Shown piece after piece: positions 41,638-61,440 of a stretch of 64,000 nt of DNA. The notes beneath the pieces are model-generated. The model had not been told where the DNA came from. It was given only the letters and a program-made list of their open reading frames with translations, and did no database searches. The DNA is from Candidatus Zixiibacteriota bacterium. GTDB lineage: Bacteria; Zixibacteria; MSB-5A5; GN15; FEB-12. A program made the translations under genes and the position numbers. Location of the stretch: assembly GCA_020351995.1 (NCBI GenBank), contig CP070674.1, positions 1,413,307 through 1,477,306 on the forward strand, given 5' to 3'. Every line of letters begins with the position of its first letter. Within the stretch, counting starts at the first letter, position 1.

Positions 41638-42492
41638 TCAGTTCAGGTAGGCCCGTAGCGAACGGCTGCGCGAAGCATGCCGAAGTCGACGAATGGCCTT
41701 CTCCTTAATCTGCCGCACCCGCTCACGGGTCAGCGAAAAACGCGCGCCAATCTCCTCGAGCGTCAGCGGCTTCTCGTGATTAAGCCCAAAATACAGATTG
41801 ATAACCTCGGCCTCGCGCGGAGTCAGCGAGTCAAGGGCTTTCTCGATCTCGAGCTTGAGCGAGCCGCTCAGCAAAGCCTCGTCCGGAGACGGCTGGTACT
41901 CATCTTCGAGCACATCAATAAGTGAATTATCCTCCGAAGATGAAAACGGCGCGTCCAGCGACAGGTGCGAGTTCGATATCTTCAGCGTGTCCGATACCTC
42001 ACCTTCCGACAACTCCAGCTCTTTGGCAATTTCTTTGGGCGAGGGAATTCGTCCCAACCCCTGCTCTAACTGGCTGGACACCTTGCCGATCTTGTGAAGC
42101 GTTCCGACACGGTTCAACGGCAGGCGCACAATGCGGCTCTGTTCCGCAAGCGCCTGAAGGATCGCCTGGCGAATCCACCAGACGGCGTAACTGATGAACT
42201 TGAACCCGCGGGTCTCGTCAAATCGCTTGGCCGCCTTGATCAATCCGATATTACCCTCGTTAATCAAGTCCGCCAGCGAAAGCCCCTGGTTCTGATACTG
42301 TTTTGCCACCGATACAACGAAGCGCAAATTGGCCTTGGTCAATTTCTCCAGGGCTCTCTTATCGCCCTGCTTTATACGTCGTGCCAGGCGCACTTCCTCA
42401 TCGGCGCTGATGAGAGGTGTTTCCCCGATCTCACGCAAATAAAGGTCTAACGACCTGTCTTCGTCGCGATACTTTAGGGATTGTTTAGCCAC
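41638..42492 (-). CDS. rpoD: Primary-like RNA polymerase sigma-70 factor (short form lacking region 1.1)
   Basis: 284 aa. Region 2 reads [12 protein letters not shown]...[17 protein letters not shown]...[13 protein letters not shown]. Region 4.2 reads [32 protein letters not shown] start with a GGAAGGAG RBS. Confidence 0.9.
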
Positions 42493-42579: not shown

Positions 42580-44082
42580 CTATGGCCGAATCACCTTTCG
42601 GGCAACGGTGCCATCGGGCTCCACGACTATCAAAGCCACTCGCTCCTTGACAGGCAGTTCCCGGCTGATGCGGTCAATATCTTCAATCGACGAAACCGAC
42701 TTATTATTCACCTGCACGATCACCGTTCCCATGGAAATCGACGACCGGTCGGCTGGTCCGCCCCGGGCAACTCGGCGCACATAGACACCGTCAATTCGCT
42801 CGACTGCCAGCGCCTGGGCAACCGCTTCCGTAAACGTCACCAGTTCCATCCCCAGCCAACTTTTAACCTCAAGATTACCTGAGGCATCCCCCTCTGTCGA
42901 GCCGTCCATGGAGGCCAGGAAACTGTCTCGGTCACCGATCACCGTCTTCAAGGTCATCCTTTTACCGTTGCGCACAATCTCTACCGGATAGGGTTGACCG
43001 GCGCGCAACTGCGAAACCGCCACCGAAAGCTGGCTGATGTTGTCAACCGGATGATTATCCACACTCAGTATGATATCACCGGCCTTTATACCAGCCCGCT
43101 CCGCCGGAGAGTTCGCAAAAACAGAATCGATCTTCACACCACGCATGGCATCCAAACCCTGGCGCCGCGCCTCCTGTTCCGTCAGATTGCCCAGAATCAC
43201 ACCAAGCCATCCCCGGCTGACTTTGCCGGTAGCAATCAAATCGGGTACCACCGTCCGGGCCAGATTGATCGGAATCGCGAATCCAATTCCCACCGAGCCG
43301 CCCGTGGGACTGGAGATAGCCGCGTTGACCCCGATGCACTCGCCGCGAATATTGAGCAACGGACCCCCGGAATTCCCCAGGTTGATCGAGGCATCGGTCT
43401 GAATATAATCCTGATAGGTCGGTGTTTCCCGCCGACCGAAATTCAGGTTGCTTCGACCCTTGGCCGAGACCACACCCACCGTCACGGATCGAAATAGACC
43501 CTGCTCAGGAAAAGGATTACCGATAGCGATCGCCCAACTTCCGACTTTGATGGCTTCCGAGTCGCCGAAAGGTATAACTGTTATCTGCTCTTCCGGTTCA
43601 ATCTTTATCACGGCCAGGTCTGTCAGCGGGTCAGCACCGACCAACCGCGCCTCATACTGATAACCGCTGGCTGTCGTTACATTGATCTGCTGGGACCCCT
43701 CAATGACATGGTTGTTGGTGAGAATGTAACCGTCATCGCGAAAGAAGAAGCCCGAACCCGCCGACGTTGAATAAGACGGGCCATGATGCCACCACGGTAA
43801 ATCCTCCAGCTTGGTACGAGCCGATATGTGAACAACCGCCTGCTGGGCATTCTCGACCACCGCTACGAAAGGCGACTCCAGATCACCGCCGACATTTACC
43901 ACCGGATAAGCCAGAAATGAATCAGGATCCACGGGATCCTGGGCCACCGATTTGGTGGTCAGGTCGAGGTTGGAGGAGATAATAATCCCCGCGACGAGGC
44001 AAACGGCCGCGACGATTATGACAACAAGAAAGCGTTGCCCCCTGGATGCGCTGTTTTCAGGGGAGAGAGAGCGCGAGTTCAA
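42580..44082 (-). CDS. htrA: HtrA/DegP-family periplasmic serine protease with two PDZ domains
   Basis: 500 aa. The catalytic triad context is intact: TNNHVIEG, LTDLAVIKIE and GNSGGPLLN. TTG start in the ORF track, so the start is uncertain. Confidence 0.9.
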   Translation of the reverse strand: MNSRSLSPENSASRGQRFLVVIIVAAVCLVAGIIISSNLDLTTKSVAQDPVDPDSFLAYPVVNVGGDLESPFVAVVENAQQAVVHISARTKLEDLPWWHHGPSYSTSAGSGFFFRDDGYILTNNHVIEGSQQINVTTASGYQYEARLVGADPLTDLAVIKIEPEEQITVIPFGDSEAIKVGSWAIAIGNPFPEQGLFRSVTVGVVSAKGRSNLNFGRRETPTYQDYIQTDASINLGNSGGPLLNIRGECIGVNAAISSPTGGSVGIGFAIPINLARTVVPDLIATGKVSRGWLGVILGNLTEQEARRQGLDAMRGVKIDSVFANSPAERAGIKAGDIILSVDNHPVDNISQLSVAVSQLRAGQPYPVEIVRNGKRMTLKTVIGDRDSFLASMDGSTEGDASGNLEVKSWLGMELVTFTEAVAQALAVERIDGVYVRRVARGGPADRSSISMGTVIVQVNNKSVSSIEDIDRISRELPVKERVALIVVEPDGTVARKVIRP

Positions 44083-51470: not shown

Positions 51471-53180
51471 TTAAGGGATGATATTGGCGACGTAGAGCAC
51501 TGCCAGGATACCGGCCAACAAGCCGGCACCGATGGTCACGTACATCCAGAGACGACCGTTCTTGCCGGTTGGCGCGTCCGGTTCTTCTTTGACAACCGGT
51601 GCCTGCTTGCGAGCCTCCCGCTGATGCTCATACTCCTCGAAATCCAGCAGGAACTCGTCGCAGGATTTGTAGCGACGCGTCACTCTGATCGCCAGAAGCT
51701 TGGCCAGCATCCTCTGAACGTCTTCAGGTAACTGCATCTTAACGTCGTGGAGAAGCAGGTTGCTGGCTGTGTCATAACTGGGATTTCGACCGGTTATCAT
51801 CTGATGAGCGATAACGCCCAGACTGTAAATGTCTCCCTGGCGTGTCTTCTTACGTTCAGGGGGCATATACCAGTTCTTCTTGCGGGGATTTTCATAGTGA
51901 GCCGGCAGGCCAAAATCCGTGATCTTCACAACGTCATCGGCATCAAACAGAATATTCGATGGCCTCAGGTTACCGTGAATTATGTTGTTCTTGTGGGCAT
52001 GGTGAAGTCCTGAGGCAACCGCCGTGATAATTCCAAAGGCCTTGTCCCACCGATACTTACGCACCATCCGATCTGCCAGAGACCCCCCCTGGGCGTAATC
52101 AATAATTATGACCGTGGACTTAGTGTCACCACCGGAACCGTAGATATCAATAATGTTCGGGTGCTTGAGCGTGCCGAGTACTTTCGCCTCCTTGCGTCCG
52201 GCTTCGCCCTTGCCGTGTTTCTTGATTACGTAGAGTTTCTTGTTTACCCGGTTCTCCACCAGAATGGTGGAACCAAACCTCGTTTCTTTTATCGTATCCA
52301 GATATCGGCATTTGCCCAAGAATGAATCCGTTCCCTCAAGAGAAAGGCTATCGGTCTTGGCGCCGGATTCATCGCGAATGATCACATTGAGTACGGCATC
52401 TTTCAATTCCACTGCTCTCTGGTAACGATCCTTGGCCTCCTGGGCCAGGCACTTCAGGATGATTTCATCAAACTCTTTGGGCAGCTTGCCATTTATCTCG
52501 GACGGAAGTTTGAAATGCCCCTGCGGCTTGTTACCGACGAGGATCTCATACAGCATCACACCTACAGCATAGATGTCGGTCGTCTGGTCCACCCGGGCAG
52601 AACTGATTTTTTGCTCCGGTGACATGTAGGCCAGGGTCCCCATGATGATATCCGATGACGTCATCTCGCTGTCGGGCGCGCACACCATCTGAGCTATCCC
52701 GAAATCACTCACCATGGCATTGCCCTGACGATCCACCAGAACATTGGTAGGCTTTATGTCCCGATGGATAACACCGTTCTTATGGGCATAGTCGAGCGCC
52801 TTGCACACCTGTACAATCATCTCGAGCTTCGTCCTCAGCAGTATCTTGGGACTATCGATTACTTCGCGCAGCGAGGTACCGTTGATGTACTCCATGACGA
52901 AGTAGTAACGACCACTGGCCTTGCCCCGATCGATGATGTGGACAATATTGGGATGATTGAGCCGCGCGATTACCAGCGACTCCCTTTCAAATCGGCGCAC
53001 GATATCCTGGTCCTCGGTCATCTTGGAGGACAGGATCTTTATGGCCACGTCACGATCCAGCGATTCCTGCCTGGCCTTATAGATCTCAGCCACACCCCCC
53101 CGGCCGATCTTGCCGGTTATGACGTAATCGCCAATCTTTACCGCTTTCTTGGGCTGCGCTACCTGTGCTGTTTCAACCAT
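51471..53180 (-). CDS. Tail-anchored Ser/Thr protein kinase with tandem kinase + pseudokinase domains
   Basis: 569 aa. Domain 1 has GKIGRGGVAEIYKA, VAIKIL, HRDIKPTNVLV, DFGIA and YMSPEQ. Domain 2 (51636..52310) has a degenerate G-loop, YVIKK, IIHGNLRPSNILF (HGN at 51969..51977), DFGLP and YMPPER. A single TM sits at aa 545-566, with only about 3 aa beyond it. Confidence 0.9.
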   Translation of the reverse strand: MVETAQVAQPKKAVKIGDYVITGKIGRGGVAEIYKARQESLDRDVAIKILSSKMTEDQDIVRRFERESLVIARLNHPNIVHIIDRGKASGRYYFVMEYINGTSLREVIDSPKILLRTKLEMIVQVCKALDYAHKNGVIHRDIKPTNVLVDRQGNAMVSDFGIAQMVCAPDSEMTSSDIIMGTLAYMSPEQKISSARVDQTTDIYAVGVMLYEILVGNKPQGHFKLPSEINGKLPKEFDEIILKCLAQEAKDRYQRAVELKDAVLNVIIRDESGAKTDSLSLEGTDSFLGKCRYLDTIKETRFGSTILVENRVNKKLYVIKKHGKGEAGRKEAKVLGTLKHPNIIDIYGSGGDTKSTVIIIDYAQGGSLADRMVRKYRWDKAFGIITAVASGLHHAHKNNIIHGNLRPSNILFDADDVVKITDFGLPAHYENPRKKNWYMPPERKKTRQGDIYSLGVIAHQMITGRNPSYDTASNLLLHDVKMQLPEDVQRMLAKLLAIRVTRRYKSCDEFLLDFEEYEHQREARKQAPVVKEEPDAPTGKNGRLWMYVTIGAGLLAGILAVLYVANIIP

Positions 53181-53364
53181 ACTAAGTGCAATTTGTCGCA
53201 GACAGCCGATAATCCGGCTATCCCTATTATAGTCGGCACAATCAAAGGGATGGTTTATTGGGCTGAGGCTATTTTTTGGGGATGGGGGCAGGACCCGTGC
53301 ACACGGATTCTATGCCCCGTGCCGGGACCAGTGTGGGCCCGTATGGAGCTGCTATCGCGGCAAT

Positions 53365-54822
53365 TTAGTTCCAGTGAGTCTTAACGTTTACGAAAAGAGT
53401 CTTGTTGTTTCGCCAGACAAAGAAAATGACTTCGGCCGGTTTCGTCTCCTGGACCTCATCCATAATAGGTTTTATATCGTCTATCGTCTCAACCGCCACA
53501 TCTCCCACCTTCTGGATAACATCACCAATAGCCAGACCTTCAAGCGCGGCCAGCCCGCCCTGTTTGAGTTCTGAAACGACGACCCCGTGAAAGGTCTCGG
53601 GATCCTGATTATAGAACAGGTAGTCCGCGAAAACCAGGTCGCGCACCTTGAATTCCAGGGCTTCACTTTCGTACTCGGGAGCGTCAGCGGCAGCCAGCGG
53701 GGCCGCCTCCAGGGTCGCGAGCACCCGAAGCGTGTCTACCCGATCATCACTAACCCGAAGAATCGAAAATTCGACCGCTGTCCCGGGTCCCAGGTCGGCT
53801 ATGAATCGCTGGAAAACAGGTATCTTCTCATCCTTGTCGACCTCAACCGGTTGACCGTTGACTTCGTAGACAATATCCCCAATCTCCAAACCGGCCTGTT
53901 CGGCGGGGGAACCCTTTACGACATCATTGACGATTATCCCGCTGGAAGTCTCCAGCCCCCAGAAGTCGGCAATGTCTTCCGTTAACGCCTGAAGCGTAAT
54001 GCCCAGCCAGCCCCGGTCGATCTTTCCCTTTTCAGGGGGGTCAGCAATTAGTTCGGAAAGTCGATCCCCGGTCACGACTCCCAGTAAAGGCATGCCGAAT
54101 CTTTCAAAAGAGTTCATCATACCACCGGGATCAATGCCGGATACGGCCGGGTCTTCGAGTTGGCCAAGAACGCCGACTGGCTGTAAGGCCTCGTTGAATA
54201 GAACCGAGGCTATCTGAAGAGAGCTGAAGCCAACGGTCAGGGGGAAATACTCCGGTGACTCCACGATGGTCGATATCATACCGACATCAACTGCCAGCGG
54301 CGGACTCACAAACTCCGGCAAAAGCATAAAGAGCGCCAGCCACCGGCCGGTATTGAATTTCTGAGTGGTCGTGAAAGTTATCGGTACAAATTCGTCCGGT
54401 CCGACACCCTCAATCCGCAGGAAGCCGATTTTGGTGTACCGGTCGACGCCCACGTACTCGCCCGTGAAACTCCGGCCGTCAAGGGTTGTAACCTCTATAT
54501 TCGTTGGTTTCGTCCTTATCGAGAAACCGGCAAACGACGACGAGGAGTTATCGGTCGCCAGAGAAGCACCATCGAAAAGAACCAGCCCGTCACTCGATAC
54601 GATCGTGCCGAGCAGACGGTCCTCCTGTTCATTCACATGAACGCCGAACGAGATCTCTAACTTCATGTCGATTACGACCGTGTATCCCTTTATGGCCTGC
54701 CCGAGCTTCTCAAAATCAAAATTCTGCGAATAACTGGACTGCCATAGTGCCGCCGACACCAGACCGAGGGCAAGGATTGTTGCTCGGAGAAGAACCTGCA
54801 CGCCAGATTTACTGCTCATCAA
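53365..54822 (-). CDS. HtrA-like protein lacking the catalytic triad (pseudoprotease) with two PDZ domains
   Basis: 485 aa with a signal peptide. The HtrA-like N-half carries FDGAS in place of TN.HV, YTKIGFLRI in place of TDIAVIKL, and no GNSGG. The PDZ blocks are retained (RGWLGITLQ...GSPAEQAGLEIGDIVYEVNG; LAALEGLAIGDVIQKVG). It overlaps the upstream active HtrA by 14 nt. Confidence 0.8.
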   Translation of the reverse strand: MMSSKSGVQVLLRATILALGLVSAALWQSSYSQNFDFEKLGQAIKGYTVVIDMKLEISFGVHVNEQEDRLLGTIVSSDGLVLFDGASLATDNSSSSFAGFSIRTKPTNIEVTTLDGRSFTGEYVGVDRYTKIGFLRIEGVGPDEFVPITFTTTQKFNTGRWLALFMLLPEFVSPPLAVDVGMISTIVESPEYFPLTVGFSSLQIASVLFNEALQPVGVLGQLEDPAVSGIDPGGMMNSFERFGMPLLGVVTGDRLSELIADPPEKGKIDRGWLGITLQALTEDIADFWGLETSSGIIVNDVVKGSPAEQAGLEIGDIVYEVNGQPVEVDKDEKIPVFQRFIADLGPGTAVEFSILRVSDDRVDTLRVLATLEAAPLAAADAPEYESEALEFKVRDLVFADYLFYNQDPETFHGVVVSELKQGGLAALEGLAIGDVIQKVGDVAVETIDDIKPIMDEVQETKPAEVIFFVWRNNKTLFVNVKTHWN

Positions 54823-56182
54823 CTATTTCTCCCGTTTTTTCTTCAATCTTAATCGGCACAAAGCGCGTGGCGCCACCCCTCCTTATGGTCAGAAGAGCTT
54901 TTTCGGCTTCCTGCCTCGTCAGATTATTGTATGCTTCCACAAAGTCGGCCAGGGAATTGATCGTACTCTTATCAACCTTTTTCACCACGTCGCTGCGGCG
55001 CAGGCCTCCTTCATCAGCTGTGCTGACCGCTTTTACACCAATCACCATCACACCGAGAGTGTCCTCAAGTTGATTATCAATTTGCATCTGCTTGGTGATT
55101 GCCTTAACCGTAAATCCCCACCCTTTGCATTCGAAATCTTCACCCTGGAGATCCCCAAGTTCTTTCGTAACTACCTTGAACTTGTGATGCTGGTCGCCCC
55201 GCAGGACTTTCAGCGTTATCTCGGAACCGGGTTCTCGATGCGCGATCAGGCTGTAGAAGGCCGGAAGTTCCTCGACAAATCGCCCCGCCACCGGCTGATC
55301 GTCAACTTCGAGTATAACGTCACCGGCTTTCAAAAAACTCTTCTCCGCGGGCGAACCGGGATCAATGGATGAGACCAGCACGCCCACATCCCGATCGGTA
55401 CCGAAGTAATCCTCCAGCTCCTGAAGGGCCTGACAGTGAACACCTATCCAGCTACGTATCACTTTGCCCTGAGATAGAATCGAGGCGGTGGCTTCTTTAA
55501 CAATGTTTATCGGTATCGCGAAGCCGATATTATTGGCGAACCAGGTTCCTCGCGAGTTTATGCCAATTACGCGACCGGACAGGTCAACCAGCGGGCCACC
55601 CGAATTGCCCGGGTTAATGGCCGCGTCGGTCTGAATCCAGAGGTTGTATTGACCCGTGCGTTCACCCGTGGGAAGGCGAACATCTCCACTGAAATAGCGG
55701 TCCTTGGTGGAGATGACACCCGCCGAAACCGACCTGGAGAGGGCCAATGGTGAACCCATCGCAATCACATACTGACCCACTGCGATCGAATCGGAATCGC
55801 CAAATTCCGCCACCATCACCTCTCCCGTGTATTCAGACAAATCCAGTTTGATTACAGCGATATCGGTCAGCGGGTCGCCGCCCACAAATTCAGCCGGGAC
55901 AATCTCGCGGTCGGCAAGAGTGCACAAAATCCGCTCGGCTTTCGCGGTCACATGATAGTTGGTTACGACATACCCGTCGGCATGGAAAATTACGCCGGAT
56001 CCGACCACTTGCTGCTTTTCCAGTTCACCGGTATTGTAATTCTTCACCACCGGTTGAATATGAACGAGTGCTGGCATCACCCTGTCCCTGGCAAAATATA
56101 TCTCATTCTGAACCGTTCCGGCACGCGCGACGGCCGTTACCATTATCGGGACCAAAAGAATGATAAGTGTAATTCTAGACAT
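54809..56182 (-). CDS. HtrA/DegQ-family serine protease with two PDZ domains (catalytically intact)
   Basis: 457 aa with TNYHVTA, LTDIAVIKLD and GNSGGPLVDLSGRVIGINS. Confidence 0.9.
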   Translation of the reverse strand: MSRITLIILLVPIMVTAVARAGTVQNEIYFARDRVMPALVHIQPVVKNYNTGELEKQQVVGSGVIFHADGYVVTNYHVTAKAERILCTLADREIVPAEFVGGDPLTDIAVIKLDLSEYTGEVMVAEFGDSDSIAVGQYVIAMGSPLALSRSVSAGVISTKDRYFSGDVRLPTGERTGQYNLWIQTDAAINPGNSGGPLVDLSGRVIGINSRGTWFANNIGFAIPINIVKEATASILSQGKVIRSWIGVHCQALQELEDYFGTDRDVGVLVSSIDPGSPAEKSFLKAGDVILEVDDQPVAGRFVEELPAFYSLIAHREPGSEITLKVLRGDQHHKFKVVTKELGDLQGEDFECKGWGFTVKAITKQMQIDNQLEDTLGVMVIGVKAVSTADEGGLRRSDVVKKVDKSTINSLADFVEAYNNLTRQEAEKALLTIRRGGATRFVPIKIEEKTGEIVDEQ

Positions 56183-56382
56183 TGACTTTCCTGGATATGT
56201 TGGTTCTTCGCATCTCTTAAACAGAATTTAGCTGTGCTGGTTCAAAAGTAAACTAAAAAACCGCCTGCTGCCGGCTACAGGAGCGTCTTATAACCGTCAA
56301 CAGGCGATGATTTCAGCGTCGGGAATACCGGCGCCGGTCTGCTGCCTCTCTACCTATGTCAGCCGGCGGTCAGGGCACCGCT

Positions 56383-57231
56383 TCATTTCCAGTAAACATC
56401 CACTGAACCCAGACCGACCGAGATTTCGAGAGTTATTCGCGTATTAGCTCCATCGAAATCGTCGGACTCGTAAACGTCATCGTCCACTTCATCCATGTCA
56501 CGGTTGTGGAGATCGACCGAGGATAACCAGTTGTCGCCCTCGGTTTCGATACGGAAAGGAACACCATCGGGCAGAGTAATATCCGCCGAGCCAAGGCCTA
56601 TGTCGACACTTATCACCGATTCGCCGGAATACTCGCCCCGGAGATCAAGTTCAAAGGAACCTGCCCCACCGTCGAAATCAAAATACTCGAAATTGGCGTT
56701 GCCCACGCTGTGAATCTCAACGGAGGACGCCCCGGCATCAATATCGATTTCTTCCAGCCGGATAGGGTTGGGCTCGGAGAACTCCAGCACAGCCGAGGCC
56801 GCGCCAACGTCAAGCGAAAATTCCTGAAGAGGTATTCCTCCCAGGTCAATGTCGGCGTCACAGGCCCCAATATCCATCTCGATAGATGTCGGATACTTCT
56901 TGGATAACACAATGTCCCAGCGATTATCGTCCGTGTCGATGTTGGTCGATGAACGATGTTCACTTTCCAGGTCTATAAAGCAGGTACCTCGTTTCTCCGC
57001 GTAATCAACCAAATATTCGACCCGGCGCGGATCATAGGTGATATCAATTACGGCTGCCTCGGCCATGTCCTTCGACCGAACCGTAAACTCTCCTGCCCCC
57101 AGATCGCATCGAACGAATACTTCATCAGCATTCTTTAATTCTACTGTATCGCTGACGTGCTCTTTTCTGTCAGCCACGACCGAACCGGAAAGAAGCATAA
57201 TCGCCGCAAGAACAACAATCCATCTATTCAT
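56383..57231 (-). CDS. Exported Toastrack-type (DUF2154/DUF4097-like) beta-rich protein
   Basis: 282 aa with a signal peptide. Repetitive D/G-rich short strands are typical of the LiaF/PspC-associated Toastrack fold: DIGACDADIDLGG, DVGAASAVLEF, IDAGASSVEIH, FDGGAGSFELDL and DIGLGSADITL. Confidence 0.55.
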   Translation of the reverse strand: MNRWIVVLAAIMLLSGSVVADRKEHVSDTVELKNADEVFVRCDLGAGEFTVRSKDMAEAAVIDITYDPRRVEYLVDYAEKRGTCFIDLESEHRSSTNIDTDDNRWDIVLSKKYPTSIEMDIGACDADIDLGGIPLQEFSLDVGAASAVLEFSEPNPIRLEEIDIDAGASSVEIHSVGNANFEYFDFDGGAGSFELDLRGEYSGESVISVDIGLGSADITLPDGVPFRIETEGDNWLSSVDLHNRDMDEVDDDVYESDDFDGANTRITLEISVGLGSVDVYWK

Positions 57232-57276
57232 AGCCTAATCTCCCAAAATTGATATTCTACTTGCCTTTATATAAGA

Positions 57277-58521
57277 TTACGAGCCGGCAGGACCGGAGGT
57301 TTCATCCTCATTCTCCCCGTCGAAAACCCCGGGCGTAGGTTCCGGGGGCGTCTTGGGAATAGGTGGCGGAGCCGGGGTTACGGTTGCTCCGGCTCGCCGC
57401 TGACGCTCTTTCCAGGGAATGTACACTTTGAAGCCGAACCGCGTCATTACTGCTCCCCCAACACCAGTCAAAATAGGGTAAGTACTCAGAACTATTGAAA
57501 CCACCAGGAAGAAAACCCCAAAACCGCGAGCTACGTCGGCGCTTGCCCTCAGCAGGGCCGCCGTTAAGAACCACAGCGCCATGAACGCCAGTATCCCCAC
57601 CATTGACCGTAGTAACACGTTAGATCCGGGGCCCTCAAACCTCGCCAGAACCACCCGGCCAACATCTTCACCAAATGCGACTACTCCGAGTAAGATCGCA
57701 AACAGGTAGACAAAAGGTACAAACGGTAAGAGTACTACACCGACGATGGTAATTGCCACCAACACCAATATGAATGGCATCAGCAACATGAAGAAAAGCC
57801 CGATAAGATAAGCCTTGAGCCTGTTCTCAGAGAGACAGGTCTTGAAATTTGCGGTCTGACGGGGCAAAAGCGTCACAATCAAAAAACCGAAGAATAAGAA
57901 GACACTGGTGAATATCACGATCAGAATCATCCCGACATCGGAGCCGGGCGGCGGTATGTAATCTCCCGGATCGATGTCAACGATCACCCGCTCACCCAGA
58001 ATTTGCCCCCCCGGTTTGACCACGATTTCCGAGGCAGTAACGTCCCCATCGACCCTCCCGCCTCCCGCAATCAGTACCCGGTTATTTATGGATGTTACAT
58101 CGCCTTTGACCCACCCCCGAATCGTTACCCGACCCAGCGCGATGATATTCCCATCGACATACTCGTCATAGTCAATCACAATCCGTTGGACGACCGGCTT
58201 TACTTTCACCTCCCGCGAGTCACGTTCCTCGACCGGAGCATATACATCACCCAGCTCGTCGGGGGCCTCGGGCGCCTCGACATCCTCACCATCGCCCGGA
58301 ATTCCGACTACAAAGACGCCCCTGTCAAAGTCGTAGTACCAGTCATAGCCGGCCGTGTCAACGGCCGCGACGCCGTCTGCAGTCAGTGTTATTTCATTGA
58401 AAACGGTGTCGGAAGGCGCGTATTCGCCGGCCTCGTCCTGCGCCCGCGATACGGCCACGCTTGCCGAAAGCAAAAGGACGGAGGCAAATAGCACCTGTGT
58501 GCCCACCGGGGGGATTCTCAT
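57277..58521 (-). CDS. Membrane protein with exported bactofilin-like (DUF583) beta-helix segment, about 5 TM segments and a Pro-rich tail
   Basis: 414 aa with signal-like MRIPPVGTQVLFASVLLLSASVAVSRA. The block GNIIALGRVTIRGWVKGDVTSINNRVLIAGGGRVDGDVTASEIVVKPGGQILGERV follows the bactofilin repeat pattern. The C-terminus reads TPAPPPIPKTPPEPTPG. Confidence 0.6.
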   Translation of the reverse strand: MRIPPVGTQVLFASVLLLSASVAVSRAQDEAGEYAPSDTVFNEITLTADGVAAVDTAGYDWYYDFDRGVFVVGIPGDGEDVEAPEAPDELGDVYAPVEERDSREVKVKPVVQRIVIDYDEYVDGNIIALGRVTIRGWVKGDVTSINNRVLIAGGGRVDGDVTASEIVVKPGGQILGERVIVDIDPGDYIPPPGSDVGMILIVIFTSVFLFFGFLIVTLLPRQTANFKTCLSENRLKAYLIGLFFMLLMPFILVLVAITIVGVVLLPFVPFVYLFAILLGVVAFGEDVGRVVLARFEGPGSNVLLRSMVGILAFMALWFLTAALLRASADVARGFGVFFLVVSIVLSTYPILTGVGGAVMTRFGFKVYIPWKERQRRAGATVTPAPPPIPKTPPEPTPGVFDGENEDETSGPAGS

Positions 58522-58549
58522 CGTTACATCCTATGTATTCTGCCGATGC

Positions 58550-59464
58550 CTAGTAAAGCACAACATCGACATCACCAGTGCCCGAGGAAAGCGATATGGT
58601 CGGCCCGCCGTTTCCAAACTGACCCACCAATCGCTTGCCCGATACAGATTTTATCGTCACTGGTATTTGCGTACGTATTTCTCCGGCTTCGGTTTCGATA
58701 TCCAGCAAACCTGATGATGATACCGGCACCGAGAAAGTAATAGAACCGCTCGCTGTCTCAACAAAATAGTCTTTGGGGCTGTCCAGTTCCGTCTGGACTT
58801 TTACCTCGCCCGCCGACGTGGAAAGGTCAATAGCCCCCCGAACCTGTATGATGGAGATCGCGCTGGACGTCGACTTGACTCTGATATCCCCTTCAATCCA
58901 GTGCAGGTCAATTTGCCCCGTCGGCTGTACCAAGGCCACTGATCCAAATATGTACTCGCCGGTAGTCGTACCACCCGAATTCTCCACAACCACGTCTCCC
59001 TCGACGGAGGAAATACTAACATCACCGTTCATGCTCACAATCGATACCGACGAGTTAATCGGCACGGTAATCTGAAAATCAACAGCCCCGTACGAGTCTT
59101 TGCCGGCTGTGCCAAGCAGACGGCTCCAGAATGAGCGACCGCGGTTAAGCATTTTCAGATAATGCGTTTCGATTTCTACGTGTCGGTCGTCCGATTTCAC
59201 TTTGATCTCAACGTGATCAGCAACTTCTTCGGCCTCATCCCGGTTTGAACCTCGTACTTTCTTAATAGCCTCGATAATGACACGACCATCGCTGCCACCG
59301 GTGACAGTCACATCACCCTTGACGGAATACAGGTCCAGCTCCACGGGTTCATCGATTTCAAGAATCTTCTGATATTCAAACGAGAATTCCTCACCGCTGA
59401 CCGGCAGACCCAGACCAAAGACAATTACCGCTGCGGGGAGCAGCCTGATAAGCAACCAACGCAT
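58550..59464 (-). CDS. DUF4097/Toastrack-domain protein with N-terminal signal anchor
   Basis: 304 aa. It starts directly with a hydrophobic segment (MRWLLIRLLPAAVIVFGLGLPVSG). Repeated G(D/S)V.V strands follow: KGDVTVTGGSDGRVIIEA, NGDVSISSVEGDVVVEN and GTGDVDVVLY. Confidence 0.65.
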   Translation of the reverse strand: MRWLLIRLLPAAVIVFGLGLPVSGEEFSFEYQKILEIDEPVELDLYSVKGDVTVTGGSDGRVIIEAIKKVRGSNRDEAEEVADHVEIKVKSDDRHVEIETHYLKMLNRGRSFWSRLLGTAGKDSYGAVDFQITVPINSSVSIVSMNGDVSISSVEGDVVVENSGGTTTGEYIFGSVALVQPTGQIDLHWIEGDIRVKSTSSAISIIQVRGAIDLSTSAGEVKVQTELDSPKDYFVETASGSITFSVPVSSSGLLDIETEAGEIRTQIPVTIKSVSGKRLVGQFGNGGPTISLSSGTGDVDVVLY

Positions 59465-59490
59465 AATCTTTGCCGTCCTGTTTTCACCGG

Positions 59491-60057
59491 CTATACCACC
59501 GATTTCAACCTTTTCTTTAGCAGCTCCCGGGCTCTGAAAATCCGGGCTTTGACGGTACCAACCGGTATACTCAGTAAATCGGCTATTTCCTCGTATGATT
59601 TATCGTCTTTGTGACGGTAAATTATTACCTCACGGTACTTATCCGGCAGAGAGGCAATGGCTTCTTCGATATTATAGCGCTGCTCCTTTCGCTCCAGTTG
59701 CTTTTCGGGGTTGAACGAATGGTCGGCTACCTCAATCCCCACCGCTCCGTCCTTAGTCTGAACTTCCTGATCCAGTGACAGGGCGCTGATGCGCTTCTTC
59801 CGGAGATAATCGATAGAGCAGTTGGCCGCGATTTTGTAAAGCCAGGTCGAGAATCTGTACTCGGAACGGTAGCTGCCGAGCGAAGAAAAGGCCTTCATAA
59901 AGGTCTCTTGTACCAGGTCATGGGCAGTCTCGCTGTTGCGCACTATCTTGAAGATAATGTGATAGATGGCCAGGCGATGCCTTTCGGTCAGGTTTTCATA
60001 GGCCTTTTGGTTGCCTTTCAAAGCCTCGGATATAACTTGTGTCTCGTCGTCGTACAA
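59491..60057 (-). CDS. ECF-type RNA polymerase sigma factor
   Basis: 188 aa. Region 2 reads AHDLVQETFMKAF...FSTWLYKIAANCSIDYLR. Region 4 reads EIADLLSIPVGTVKARIFRARELLKK. TTG start in the ORF track with an AAGGA upstream. Confidence 0.9.
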   Translation of the reverse strand: MYDDETQVISEALKGNQKAYENLTERHRLAIYHIIFKIVRNSETAHDLVQETFMKAFSSLGSYRSEYRFSTWLYKIAANCSIDYLRKKRISALSLDQEVQTKDGAVGIEVADHSFNPEKQLERKEQRYNIEEAIASLPDKYREVIIYRHKDDKSYEEIADLLSIPVGTVKARIFRARELLKKRLKSVV

Positions 60058-60249
60058 CCGAATCCTTCTGCCCGTTTTGTTAATCCACTTCCCTGGCTCG
60101 ATTTAGCCGGTATATAATAAGCAACCTGAAATCTACTCACAAGGGAAAAGTCTGAACGCAGTCGGAACACGCAAGCGCTTGAGGGAAACTAAAGAATGGT
60201 TCAGAATGAAACACTCGCCTCAACATCGGTTTAACCGATTAGCATCGAG

Positions 60250-61440
60250 TCAATCCGTCGCTCCAGTAACTTCTCTAAAGTGCTCAGGGTCGGTATCACC
60301 CTCGGTATTGAAGACCAGGATTGTTGAATCGGATCCGATTTCCAATCGCTCTTTGGCTTCCGCCAGCTTCTCCGCCGTCGCAAGAGCAATCAGGGCCGCC
60401 AGGCCGGCGGCTCCGGATTCTCCGGATATAACCCGAGGATCATCACCGACAGGGTGGTAGAATTGCCGCATGGCCTTGCGGCATGACTCGTCTGATATCG
60501 CCACAGCCAAGCGAAAGCCGTCCCGAATGAGCGGCCATGCGTTCAGTGATGGTGTGCCGCAATTTAGCCCGGCCATAATGGTCCTGAGACTCCCCCGGCT
60601 CGATCTGAGCTCGCCGTCGCCATGGCGAATCGATTCCAGAATGCAGTCAGCCTCGGTCGGCTCAACCCCGATCAGAAGCGGTGGGTTTCTCTTCTGCAGG
60701 TAATACCAGGCGGCCGCCCCGGCAAAACTACCCACGCCCACCTGGAATATGGCATGACTCGGCGGTGTTTCGGCACTGTCATCTAACGCCCGGTCAATTT
60801 CTCTAAACATGGTTGTATAAGCAGCCATAATCCAGGCCGACACCTCCGTGTATCCCGGGTACGAAGTATCCGATATGACGTGCCAGCCCTGTTCCTCGGC
60901 ATCCTGAGCCATCCGCTTGAGCGTCTGGTCATAGCTGCCATCCACCACGACTACCTCCGCACCTTCCTTCCGGATATTGTCAATCCGGGCTTTCACGGCA
61001 CACGAGGGAATGTAGATAACGGCCCGCTGGCCGATCTTGTTGGCGAACCAGGCTACCGCTCGGCCATGATTACCATCCGTCGCGGTGCAAAACGGACGCA
61101 GATCAATCTGAGCCAGCAGGGCAGGATCATAAAGATTCGCTATCTCGAATTTGACGCCAAAACGATTTTCCCACACTCTCTTGATGAACCTGTAAATGGC
61201 ATAAGACGCTCCCATCGACTTGAATGCCTTGAGGCCGAACCGATGAGATTCGTCTTTCACCAGAATCTCCCGGACCCCGATTTTACGGGCTAAACAGGAA
61301 AGGCGCACCAGTGGGGTAAAACTGTACCCCGGCACGGAACGATGGAACTCTTCAATGTCTTCGCTCAGAAACGCGGTGTATTCCGGGTCGCTCCAGACAG
61401 GGTTGTCGGTCACATGCCGGTTGAGGCTGTAATCGCACAT
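60250..61440 (-). CDS. dpaL: Diaminopropionate ammonia-lyase (PLP-dependent)
   Basis: 396 aa, collinear with E. coli YgeX as I recall it: ILVKDESHRFGLKAFKSMGASYAI, TATDGNHGRAVAW, RVISGESGAAGL and NTEGDTDPEHFREV. Confidence 0.85.
   Translation of the reverse strand: MCDYSLNRHVTDNPVWSDPEYTAFLSEDIEEFHRSVPGYSFTPLVRLSCLARKIGVREILVKDESHRFGLKAFKSMGASYAIYRFIKRVWENRFGVKFEIANLYDPALLAQIDLRPFCTATDGNHGRAVAWFANKIGQRAVIYIPSCAVKARIDNIRKEGAEVVVVDGSYDQTLKRMAQDAEEQGWHVISDTSYPGYTEVSAWIMAAYTTMFREIDRALDDSAETPPSHAIFQVGVGSFAGAAAWYYLQKRNPPLLIGVEPTEADCILESIRHGDGELRSSRGSLRTIMAGLNCGTPSLNAWPLIRDGFRLAVAISDESCRKAMRQFYHPVGDDPRVISGESGAAGLAALIALATAEKLAEAKERLEIGSDSTILVFNTEGDTDPEHFREVTGATD

What the first reader, a model, noticed from the sequence alone, without database searches (positions are those of the whole stretch)
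53365..54822. Catalytically dead HtrA paralog translationally coupled to an active HtrA
The 485-aa protein keeps the HtrA layout (signal peptide, protease-like beta-barrel half, two PDZ domains) but has lost all three catalytic contexts. Each loss can be compared with its neighbour 54809..56182:
- GTIVSSDGLVLFDGASL vs GSGVIFHADGYVVTNYHV (His lost)
- VGVDRYTKIGFLRIEG vs VGGDPLTDIAVIKLD (Asp lost)
- no GNSGGP (Ser lost)

The two ORFs overlap by 14 nt, implying co-translation and probably mixed oligomers. A pseudoprotease subunit could act as a regulatory or substrate-capture subunit of the HtrA cage.
Basis: seen in the sequence. Interest (0 to 1): 0.55.

Follow-up and report, generated by a model that had tools for sequence, protein, structure and literature searches.

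The report
Dead HtrA paralog coupled to HtrA
This Zixibacteria gene encodes a full-length copy of the periplasmic quality-control protease HtrA that has lost all three catalytic residues, and in every genome examined it sits directly downstream of, and overlaps, an active HtrA gene, so it is probably a conserved non-cutting partner of that protease.

Summary
The product is a signal peptide, an HtrA-like double-barrel domain and two PDZ domains.

- **Triad lost.** Aligned to the active neighbour and to E. coli DegP/DegQ/DegS, the His-Asp-Ser positions are S100, K130 and I203. No triad survives in 20 orthologs or 9 distant relatives.
- **Not decaying.** The dead domain is as conserved as its own PDZ domains (57% vs 59-61% mean pairwise identity).
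- **Always paired.** In 73 of 73 evaluable GTDB species loci, an active HtrA lies directly upstream on the same strand. The usual stop/start overlap is 8 nt (11 nt here, not 14), with a Shine-Dalgarno-like motif.
- **Own stress-type promoter.** A terminator and then a conserved ECF-type promoter precede the pair.
- **Ancient pair.** Distant relatives (25-29% identity) in unrelated contexts also follow an active HtrA. Dead proteins form one clade and their partners another.

Mixed oligomers remain untested. Dead HtrA homologs are already known (MamO, PflC), so this is a new, undescribed variant: an obligately HtrA-coupled pseudoprotease family. Moderate interest.

The parts
53365..54819 (-). 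Dead HtrA paralog (pseudoprotease), 484 aa plus stop, read from ATG 54819. The TTG at 54822 is the upstream alternative start.
   Evidence: ORF. A 100% identical 484-aa database record is annotated only as 'PDZ domain-containing protein', Ca. Zixiibacteriota. hhalign to the HtrA family gives 99.8%. Foldseek best hits are DegP and DegQ.
54730..54819 (-). Probable Sec signal peptide (residues 1-30), with the conserved xAQ|xFDF junction in orthologs.
   Evidence: Basic N-terminus and hydrophobic 12-mer TILALGLVSAAL. AF2 predicts a helix at 4-25. Identity among orthologs is only 17% here and rises sharply from Q32 onward. Inferred; no signal-peptide predictor was run.
54034..54729 (-). Degenerate HtrA protease-like domain (residues 31-262). 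Triad equivalents: S100 (54520..54522), K130 (54430..54432), I203 (54211..54213). It has a 15-aa insertion at 84-98 and an expanded disordered L2-like loop at 223-242. Family signatures are LLPEFVxPP, DVGMIS, PLTVGF and PVGVLG.
   Evidence: Alignments with the active neighbour, distant relatives and E. coli DegP/Q/S. Coordinates checked. The N-domain profile hits only HtrA proteases in PDB. Mean pairwise identity is 57%.
53716..54033 (-). Linker plus PDZ1 (residues 263-368). It carries an intact carboxylate-binding loop, R269-G-W-L-G-I274, equivalent to DegP ELGI 264-267.
   Evidence: Pfam PDZ_6, PDZ and PDZ_2 at E=1e-16 to 1e-18. WLGITLQALT is the most conserved 10-mer of the protein, at 0.96.
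53368..53655 (-). PDZ2 (residues 389-484). F476 is invariant at the DegP Y444 position, and a clade-specific Trp (W483) lies near the C-terminus.
   Evidence: Second PDZ stretch in Pfam. Columns.
54809..54819 (-). 11-nt overlap ATGAGCAGTAA: the start of the dead gene lies inside the last codons and stop of htrA. The SD-like GGGAG lies at about 54828..54832.
   Evidence: Sequence. The overlap is conserved across 73 loci: 8 nt in 42, 11 nt in 8. An SD-like 4-mer occurs in 60 of 74 loci against 19 of 74 controls.
54809..56182 (-). Active partner HtrA (457 aa) with H77 (55952..55954), D107 (55862..55864), S194 in GNSGGP (55601..55603) and two PDZ domains.
   Evidence: Pfam and NCBIfam. The triad is invariant in 15 orthologs. 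Coordinates checked.
56217..56243 (-). ECF-type promoter-like motif GAACC-N17-GTTTAA, about 60 nt upstream of the htrA ATG.
   Evidence: GAAC-N17-GTT(A/T) occurs in 52 of 76 loci, against a shuffle mean of 1.2 and maximum of 6. Spacing is exactly 17 in 51 of 52, at a median 58 nt before the ATG. Function is inferred.
56260..56308 (-). Strong hairpin followed by a U-run: the intrinsic terminator of the upstream LiaF-like gene. It makes htrA plus dead-htrA a separate transcription unit.
   Evidence: RNA fold gives -40.7 kcal/mol, z=-4.6. The terminator scan also finds it.
56383..60057 (-). Conserved upstream neighbourhood: ECF sigma factor (59491..60057), DUF4097 toast-rack protein (58550..59464), bactofilin-domain membrane protein (57277..58521) and LiaF-like toast-rack protein (56383..57231).
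   Evidence: Pfam. The same gene order is found in three Zixibacteria genomes whose dead orthologs are 53-61% identical to the target.

Best explanation
The gene encodes a periplasmic HtrA (DegP/DegQ-type) pseudoprotease. It arose from an ancient tandem duplication of an htrA gene. The downstream copy lost His, Asp and Ser but kept the fold, a peptide-binding PDZ1 and PDZ2.

It is made from the same mRNA as the active HtrA. The stop and start codons overlap, which gives translational coupling and so a fixed ratio of the two proteins. The pair sits behind its own stress-type (ECF-like) promoter.

Most likely it works as a non-catalytic partner of that HtrA. It would bind unfolded or C-terminal peptide ligands through PDZ1 and the former substrate cleft without cutting them. 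It would then act with the active enzyme, either inside mixed HtrA assemblies (dead trimers stacked with active trimers, or mixed trimers) or as a companion holdase that feeds, buffers or tunes proteolysis.

**Shown:** homology, loss of the triad, purifying selection, obligate adjacency and overlap, the promoter-like motif, and a single ancient origin.

**Inferred:** export to the periplasm, translational coupling, ligand binding, physical association with HtrA, and the direction of any regulatory effect.
For: **Homology to HtrA with the triad lost**
- hhalign 99.8%, E=2e-27.
- Foldseek best hits DegP and DegQ, E=4e-26.
- N-domain profile hits only HtrA proteases in PDB.
- Triad columns are S/K/I against E. 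coli DegP H105/D135/S210. No triad is found in 29 family members.
- 0 of 73 species orthologs carry a GxSGG motif.

**Maintained by selection**
- More than 380 relatives, the 120 listed being 53-81% identical.
- The dead domain is 57% identical on average, against 61% and 59% for its PDZ domains.

**Tied to one HtrA**
- 73 of 73 evaluable loci have an active HtrA directly upstream. The overlap mode is 8 nt, with an SD-like motif.
- Distant relatives (25-29% identity in the N-domain) in other genomic contexts also follow an active HtrA.
- Dead proteins form one clade (200/200 bootstraps) and their partners another (200/200).
- A second canonical HtrA elsewhere in the window is not paired.

**Binding and assembly features kept**
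- The PDZ1 carboxylate loop WLGI is the most conserved segment.
- An aromatic residue is kept at the DegP Y444 position.

**Stress context**
- A terminator followed by a conserved GAAC-N17-GTT motif.
- An ECF sigma, toast-rack and LiaF-like cluster lies upstream.

**Precedent**
- MamO, a dead HtrA-like protein, is needed for the activity of the HtrA protease MamE (PMC4794232).
Against: - No test of physical interaction was possible. AlphaFold-Multimer is not available here.
- Operon adjacency and overlap occur between proteins that do not form complexes.
- The dead domain has diverged strongly from its partner: 26% identity, a shortened L3-like loop, a 15-aa insertion and an expanded L2-like loop. 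These could be incompatible with mixed trimers.
- Both proteins are exported separately, so coupling does not guarantee co-assembly.
- The AF2 model is of moderate confidence (pLDDT 75, pTM 0.60), and residue-level structural superposition could not be inspected.
- The role of DegP Y444 in cage assembly is recalled from the literature; the papers were found but not read.
- The sigma factor that uses the promoter-like motif is not identified. The ECF gene's own upstream region shows a sigma-70-like promoter instead.
Confidence: 0.55

Rival explanations
1. It is a stand-alone periplasmic holdase chaperone. The dead HtrA forms its own homo-oligomers and shelters unfolded envelope proteins, as DegP S210A can do. 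It is merely co-expressed with HtrA as the 'hold' arm of a hold-or-degrade stress response, with no physical complex.
For: - Fold, PDZ1 binding loop and cage-related aromatic residue are kept.
- It carries its own signal peptide.
- It has diverged strongly from the partner's protease domain, at 26% identity.
- The protease-independent chaperone activity of DegP is established knowledge (recalled, not checked here).
Against: Adjacency and overlap in 73 of 73 loci, together with retention of the pairing in distant lineages and other contexts, is tighter than co-regulation alone needs. It does not exclude this reading.
Confidence: 0.25
2. It is a signalling component of the local envelope-stress circuit. 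The dead HtrA would act as a PDZ sensor or protector (RseB-like or DegS-like logic) that controls cleavage of an anti-sigma or membrane protein of the adjacent ECF cluster by the active HtrA. Alternatively it would feed the downstream tandem Ser/Thr kinase.
For: - Synteny with the ECF sigma, DUF4097, bactofilin-membrane and LiaF-like genes upstream, and the tandem kinase downstream, is conserved.
- The kinase also follows the pair in the distant locus L006.
- An ECF-like promoter lies before htrA.
Against: - The pair is a separate transcription unit behind a terminator.
- In L004/L005 and L008 the pair occurs without the ECF cluster or kinase.
- No anti-sigma domain was identified in the cluster.
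Confidence: 0.1
3. It is a structural scaffold unrelated to proteolysis, like Campylobacter PflC. PflC is a dead protease-PDZ-PDZ HtrA homolog that forms a lattice in the flagellar motor.
For: PflC shows that this architecture can be exapted as a scaffold (PMC12222027). The oligomerisation-related features are kept.
Against: No flagellar or other machine genes surround it. Universal coupling to htrA points to a protease-related role. No PflC chain appeared among the PDB sequence matches or the listed fold matches.
Confidence: 0.06
4. It is a cryptic protease that uses non-canonical catalytic residues, for example the nearly invariant S205 or the invariant S57 with a Lys or Asp.
For: S57, D178 and R127 are invariant, and S205 and K53 nearly invariant, among the 20 Zixibacteria orthologs.
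Against: - S205 is Gly or Cys in two orthologs.
- S57 is Thr, or absent, in the distant dead relatives (reading of the sequences).
- No His or Asp occupies the canonical columns, and the nucleophile column is hydrophobic in nearly all members.
- To my knowledge no Ser-Lys dyad is known on this fold.
Confidence: 0.03

Closest known systems
HtrA/DegP/DegQ family (MEROPS S1C; NCBIfam TIGR02037 'Do family serine endopeptidase')
   Same: It has the same overall architecture and fold: signal peptide, chymotrypsin-like double barrel, PDZ1 and PDZ2. The PDZ1 carboxylate-binding loop and the aromatic at the DegP Y444 position are kept. It is homologous by profile and by structure.
   Different: All three catalytic residues are replaced (S100, K130, I203). 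It has a 15-aa insertion at the His turn, a shortened L3-like loop and an expanded L2-like loop. It scores 130 bits against the TIGR02037 cut-off of 416, and Pfam Trypsin_2 is below threshold.
MamO / LimO and the degenerate MamE2 copies of magnetotactic bacteria (PMC4794232)
   Same: These are HtrA-family pseudoproteases that arose by duplication next to an active HtrA (MamE). MamO is needed, non-catalytically, for MamE-dependent proteolysis.
   Different: MamO has a TauE transporter domain, a di-histidine metal-binding site and no PDZ pair, and it belongs to magnetosome islands. The target has none of these. No MamO model appears among its NCBIfam matches and no His is invariant. The target is a separate clade whose sister is its own partner clade.
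PflC of Campylobacter jejuni (PMC12222027)
   Same: It is a periplasmic protease-PDZ-PDZ protein homologous to HtrA whose catalytic triad has atrophied.
   Different: PflC is 364 aa and forms the medial-disk lattice of the flagellar motor. The paper does not present it as paired with an htrA gene. The target is 484 aa, has no flagellar context and is always overlapped with htrA. Sequence relatedness to PflC was not tested, because its sequence was not on hand.
ClpR subunits of cyanobacterial and plastid ClpP/R cores (PMC6508832, PMC7966870): a functional analogy only
   Same: It is a catalytically dead paralog retained as a fixed partner of an active self-compartmentalising protease.
   Different: The fold and family are unrelated. 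Co-assembly is demonstrated for ClpP/R (paper abstracts) but is only hypothesised here.

Membership tests
HtrA/DegP (S1C) serine proteases | Chymotrypsin-fold protease domain homologous to S1C | tested here: met
   hhalign 99.8%, E=2e-27. Foldseek DegP 3otp E=3.9e-26. N-domain profile against 1l1j HtrA E=1.4e-8. Distant family members pass the Pfam Trypsin_2 cut-off.
HtrA/DegP (S1C) serine proteases | His-Asp-Ser catalytic triad (DegP H105, D135, S210) with the GNSGGP nucleophile motif | tested here: not met
   S100, K130 and I203 occupy the triad columns. No member of the family keeps the triad. 0 of 73 orthologs have GxSGG.
HtrA/DegP (S1C) serine proteases | One or two C-terminal PDZ domains with a carboxylate-binding loop | tested here: met
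   Two PDZ stretches in Pfam. WLGI aligns with DegP ELGI.
HtrA/DegP (S1C) serine proteases | Curated family score (NCBIfam TIGR02037 cut-off 416 bits; Pfam Trypsin_2 cut-off 27.6 bits) | tested here: not met
   130 bits and 13.7 bits respectively.
HtrA/DegP (S1C) serine proteases | Trimer-based oligomers or cages | not testable with these tools
   There are only indirect hints: a conserved aromatic at the DegP Y444 position and an invariant QxFxF motif at the mature N-terminus.
MamO-type metal-binding pseudoprotease | C-terminal TauE transporter domain, surface di-His metal site and magnetosome-island context | tested here: not met
   No TauE domain or MamO model appears among the matches. No His is invariant. 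The context is an ECF/LiaF-like cluster.
PflC-type flagellar scaffold | Sequence relatedness to PflC and a flagellar-motor context | tested here: inconclusive
   There are no flagellar genes nearby. No PflC chain appears among the listed PDB matches. The PflC sequence itself was not compared.
Translationally coupled gene pair | Stop/start overlap with a ribosome-binding site inside the upstream gene, conserved across species | tested here: met
   The overlap is 11 nt here. Across 73 loci it is 8 nt in 42, 11 nt in 8, 14 nt in 4 and 4 nt in 3. An SD-like 4-mer occurs in 60 of 74 loci against 19 of 74 controls. Coupling itself is an inference.

The most novel reading that the evidence does not exclude
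The pair is an obligate two-component HtrA machine that predates the divergence of Zixibacteria from the unplaced lineages carrying the distant pairs. Dead subunits would co-assemble with active ones into mixed cages. There they would gate, feed or allosterically set the activity of the protease. This would be an HtrA counterpart of ClpP/ClpR and, as far as the literature searches here could tell, the first heteromeric HtrA with built-in non-catalytic subunits in bacteria.
Probability: 0.35. Interest if true: 0.65.

Novelty: new variant of a known kind. Interest (0 to 1): 0.5.

Why it matters
HtrA proteases are the main periplasmic quality-control enzymes. Their regulation by oligomerisation and PDZ-bound peptides is a textbook case of allostery.

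A family of full-length, triad-less HtrA copies that is conserved across the sampled Zixibacteria species and always made together with one particular active HtrA would be a natural experiment in how a dead subunit tunes a cage-forming protease.

It also corrects annotation. These proteins are currently labelled 'PDZ domain-containing protein' or, wrongly, 'serine protease Do'.

The finding is directly testable by co-expressing two genes in E. coli. Dead paralogs of enzymes are common, and dead HtrA homologs are already known (MamO, PflC), so a specialist would be interested rather than astonished.

Tried and rejected
1. **hhalign register for the Ser column (V217).** Rejected in favour of I203. 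The distant relatives (xLGGPVFTxxGxxVGI) and the AF2 strand order show that PVGVLG is the strand after the nucleophile. The conclusion is the same under both registers.
2. **Genome-contig scan with the wide N-domain alignment A3.** Failed because no stretch was conserved enough. It was repeated with the narrower alignment A4.
3. **Taxonomy of the distant dead relatives.** The cluster look-up gave no organism names. The third homolog search, with alignment A5, returned only P0257, P0261 and P0284 plus ordinary HtrAs. These lineages remain unplaced.
4. **C-terminal Trp as a built-in PDZ ligand.** The Trp lies 0-3 residues from the end in about 100 of 120 orthologs, but is terminal in only 27. 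It is not a canonical ligand, so the idea was dropped as evidence.
5. **Same promoter motif before the ECF sigma gene.** Only a GAACC -35-like element was found, with a different -10, plus a sigma-70-like promoter. Autoregulation is not shown.
6. **Rfam search of 53000..60500.** Nothing found.
7. **First bootstrap script.** It timed out and was redone with a faster distance routine.
8. **Decaying pseudogene.** Rejected on conservation.
9. **Mirror-tree co-evolution test.** Considered and not run. Shared phylogeny and operon membership would confound it.
10. **Complex prediction.** Not possible. The structure tool takes single chains only.
Full report
**What is there**

The region holds two overlapping ORFs on the minus strand. 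The upstream one (54809..56182, 457 aa) is a canonical HtrA. It matches Pfam Trypsin_2 at E=3.7e-29 and has two PDZ domains. Its best NCBIfam model is TIGR02037, the Do family. H77, D107 and S194 (in GNSGGP) are invariant in 15 orthologs.

The flagged ORF (53365..54822) starts at a TTG that is followed at once by an ATG at 54819. The ATG is the better start for three reasons:
- The public record for this exact protein is 484 aa. It is annotated 'PDZ domain-containing protein', Candidatus Zixiibacteriota, on a 3.6-Mb contig.
- Many of the closest orthologs have the same 484-aa length.
- GGGAG lies 9 nt upstream.

The overlap with htrA is therefore 11 nt (ATGAGCAGTAA), not 14.

**Is it HtrA-like and is it dead?**

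Pfam sees two strong PDZ domains but only a sub-threshold Trypsin_2 match (13.7 bits, E=0.11). Homology over the whole length is nevertheless secure:
- BLASTP to the neighbour gives 26% identity, E=7e-23.
- A profile of 20 orthologs against a profile of the neighbour's orthologs gives probability 99.8%, E=2e-27, over residues 61-484.
- An AF2 model (pLDDT 75, pTM 0.60) finds DegP, DegQ, HtrA, MucD and DegS as best PDB folds (E down to 4e-26).
- A profile of the N-terminal domain alone hits only HtrA protease domains in PDB (Thermotoga HtrA 1l1j, E=1.4e-8).

I located the triad columns in two alignments. One included distant relatives as bridges. The other included E. coli DegP, DegQ and DegS fetched from MG1655.
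- DegP H105 aligns with S100, which varies S/T/A/G/N/Q/E across the family.
- DegP D135 aligns with K130 (K/N/R/G/Q).
- DegP S210 aligns with I203 (I/L/F/M/K/A).

hhalign alone had put the Ser column at V217. The distant relatives keep a recognisable xLGGPVFTxxGxxVGI segment. The AF2 strand order also shows that PVGVLG is the strand after the nucleophile. Neither register puts a Ser at the nucleophile position.

Other changes in the domain:
- A 15-residue insertion (84-98) sits where the His turn should be.
- The L2-like loop (223-242) is expanded and predicted disordered.
- The L3-like loop is shorter.

None of 73 species orthologs carries a GxSGG motif. Its local His alignment is shifted by the insertion, but the conclusion stands.

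**It is maintained, not decaying**

More than 380 relatives were found, the 120 listed being 53-81% identical. Nearly all are about 484 aa, and nearly all named ones come from Zixibacteria. Mean pairwise identity is 57% for the dead domain, 61% for PDZ1 and 59% for PDZ2. The partner's protease domain stands at 80%. So the domain is less constrained than a live protease but clearly under purifying selection.

The most conserved 10-mer of the whole protein is WLGITLQALT. This is the PDZ1 strand that carries the carboxylate-binding loop, and it aligns with DegP ELGI 264-267. An aromatic residue (F476, invariant) occupies the DegP Y444 position. I recall Y444 as important for cage assembly; papers on Y444A exist but I did not read them.

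The N-terminal domain family is narrow. Only 33 cluster representatives out of 1.84 billion match it at E<=1e-3, and all those inspected lack the triad.

**The pairing with an active HtrA is the striking part**

Three complete or large Zixibacteria contigs, whose dead orthologs are 53-61% identical to the target, show the same gene order:
1. ECF sigma factor
2. DUF4097 toast-rack protein
3. Bactofilin-domain membrane protein
4. LiaF-like protein
5. HtrA
6. Dead HtrA
7. Optionally, one or two genes for Por_Secre_tail (T9SS-type sorting domain) proteins
8. Tandem Ser/Thr kinase

A scan of GTDB species representatives with an N-domain alignment returned 80 loci. Almost all are labelled Zixibacteria, GN15 or FCB-group. 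In all 73 loci where both genes could be evaluated, an HtrA lies directly upstream on the same strand. In 72 of them it carries GNSGGP; the other is cut by a contig end. The stop/start overlap is 8 nt in 42 loci, 11 nt in 8, 14 nt in 4 and 4 nt in 3. An SD-like 4-mer lies 5-17 nt before the dead gene's start in 60 of 74 loci, against 19 of 74 in a control window.

Distant relatives of the dead domain (25-29% identity) show the same pairing in other settings:
- L004/L005: between hisS and recJ-relA-mreB.
- L006: 8-nt overlap, with the tandem kinase after the pair.
- L008: an active HtrA ends 38 nt upstream.
- L009: the upstream gene is cut by the contig end but has two PDZ domains.

In a neighbour-joining tree, all dead proteins form one clade (200/200 bootstraps). 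Their active neighbours form another (200/200). E. coli DegP, DegQ and DegS fall outside both (180/200). So there was one ancient tandem duplication, loss of catalysis in the downstream copy, and co-inheritance of the pair ever since. Only three outgroup sequences were used, so the sister relation of the two clades is provisional.

A second canonical HtrA in the same window (42580..44082) is not paired.

**Expression**

A strong hairpin with a U-run follows the LiaF-like gene (-40.7 kcal/mol, z=-4.6). After it comes a conserved motif, GAAC(C/T)-N17-GTT(A/T)(T)AA. It is present in 52 of 76 loci, against a shuffle mean of 1.2 and maximum of 6. The spacing is exactly 17 in 51 of 52, and the motif lies a median 58 nt before the htrA ATG. 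The window copy is at 56243..56217. The GAAC -35 and GTT -10 pattern resembles ECF-type promoters; that is my knowledge, not a test.

The pair is thus its own transcription unit, probably stress-induced. Which sigma factor reads the motif is unknown. The adjacent ECF gene has a sigma-70-like promoter and only a partial match to the motif.

**How it most likely works**

*Shown:*
- A full-length HtrA fold without a triad.
- Purifying selection on all three domains.
- An intact PDZ1 binding loop.
- Obligate, overlapping pairing with one specific HtrA across deep divergence.

*Inferred:*
- Both proteins are exported. Each has its own signal-like N-terminus.
- Overlap fixes their ratio. It cannot give co-translational assembly, because folding happens in the periplasm.
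- The dead protein binds unfolded or C-terminal peptides without cutting.
- It acts with the active enzyme.

I rate a cooperating, probably co-assembling, non-catalytic partner at about 0.55. The rivals are:
- Stand-alone holdase: 0.25.
- Signalling role in the ECF or kinase circuit: 0.10.
- PflC-like scaffold: 0.06.
- Cryptic protease: 0.03.

Nothing here tests physical interaction. The strong divergence of the dead domain argues against mixed trimers more than against stacking of dead and active trimers through PDZ contacts.

**Comparison with what is known**

Dead HtrA homologs are already documented.
- MamO is a repurposed, non-catalytic HtrA-like protein that is required for MamE-dependent proteolysis. 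Duplicated MamE copies lost their triads independently (PMC4794232).
- Campylobacter PflC is a protease-PDZ-PDZ HtrA homolog without a triad that builds a flagellar-motor lattice (PMC12222027).

The present family differs from both. It has no TauE domain and no metal site, and it has no flagellar context. Its hallmark is the universal overlap with an active htrA. No paper in the library mentions Zixibacteria together with HtrA. No curated Pfam or NCBIfam model captures the dead domain. I therefore file it as a new variant of a known kind: by descent a member of the HtrA superfamily, but not an HtrA protease. ClpR in ClpP/R cores is a functional analogy only.

**Verdict**

Interest is moderate (0.5). 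It is a clean, easily testable pseudoprotease-protease pair with very strong comparative support, in a class of phenomenon that is already known.

Noticed in passing
window 42580..44082 (-) and 41638..42492 (-): A second canonical HtrA lies about 11 kb away (500 aa, with TNNHV, DLAVIK and GNSGGP motifs; 37% identical to the paired HtrA). It sits directly upstream of a sigma-70-family factor gene, is not paired with a dead copy, and so the genome has at least two live HtrAs.
   Followed up: partly
window about 56255..56330 (-), and the same intergenic region in many of loci L010-L089: Inside the terminator hairpin between the LiaF-like gene and htrA, many genomes carry a conserved sigma-70-like element (aaCTTGCCGa, about 17 nt, TATACT) enclosed by the long-range stem. 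Such sequence conservation is unusual for a plain terminator. It could be a second (housekeeping) promoter or a small structured RNA. Rfam finds nothing.
   Followed up: partly
window 51471..53180 (-): A 569-aa protein has two Ser/Thr kinase domains in tandem and a C-terminal hydrophobic segment. It is conserved downstream of the HtrA pair in Zixibacteria, and also in the distant locus L006. The second domain may be a pseudokinase, which would make a second live/dead pairing in the same neighbourhood.
   Followed up: no
window 56383..60057 (-): A conserved four-gene cluster encodes an ECF sigma factor, a DUF4097 toast-rack protein, a bactofilin-domain protein with multiple transmembrane segments and a LiaF-like toast-rack protein. 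It looks like an undescribed envelope-stress module. No recognisable anti-sigma domain was found.
   Followed up: partly
proteins P0263, P0265, P0268, P0269, P0270, not in the window: Shorter proteins (260-320 aa) consist of a triad-less HtrA-like protease domain related to the target's N-domain. They have no PDZ domains and carry acidic or Gly/Gln-rich low-complexity tails. This suggests a wider, uncharacterised set of dead HtrA-like domains.
   Followed up: no
window 53368..53385 (-), C-terminus of the dead protein: A Trp lies 0-3 residues from the C-terminus (KT[DNH]W) in about 100 of 120 orthologs. It is also present in the eight full-length distant dead relatives aligned, and absent from the active partners, which mostly end in acidic residues. 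Its role is unknown.
   Followed up: partly
loci L015, L019, L022, L030 and others: Many MAGs that carry this Zixibacteria-type gene pair are labelled 'uncultured Ignavibacteriales' in their record titles. A few are labelled Calditrichota, Acidoferrum or Deferrimicrobium. These are probably placeholder or erroneous taxonomic labels rather than true occurrences outside Zixibacteria.
   Followed up: no
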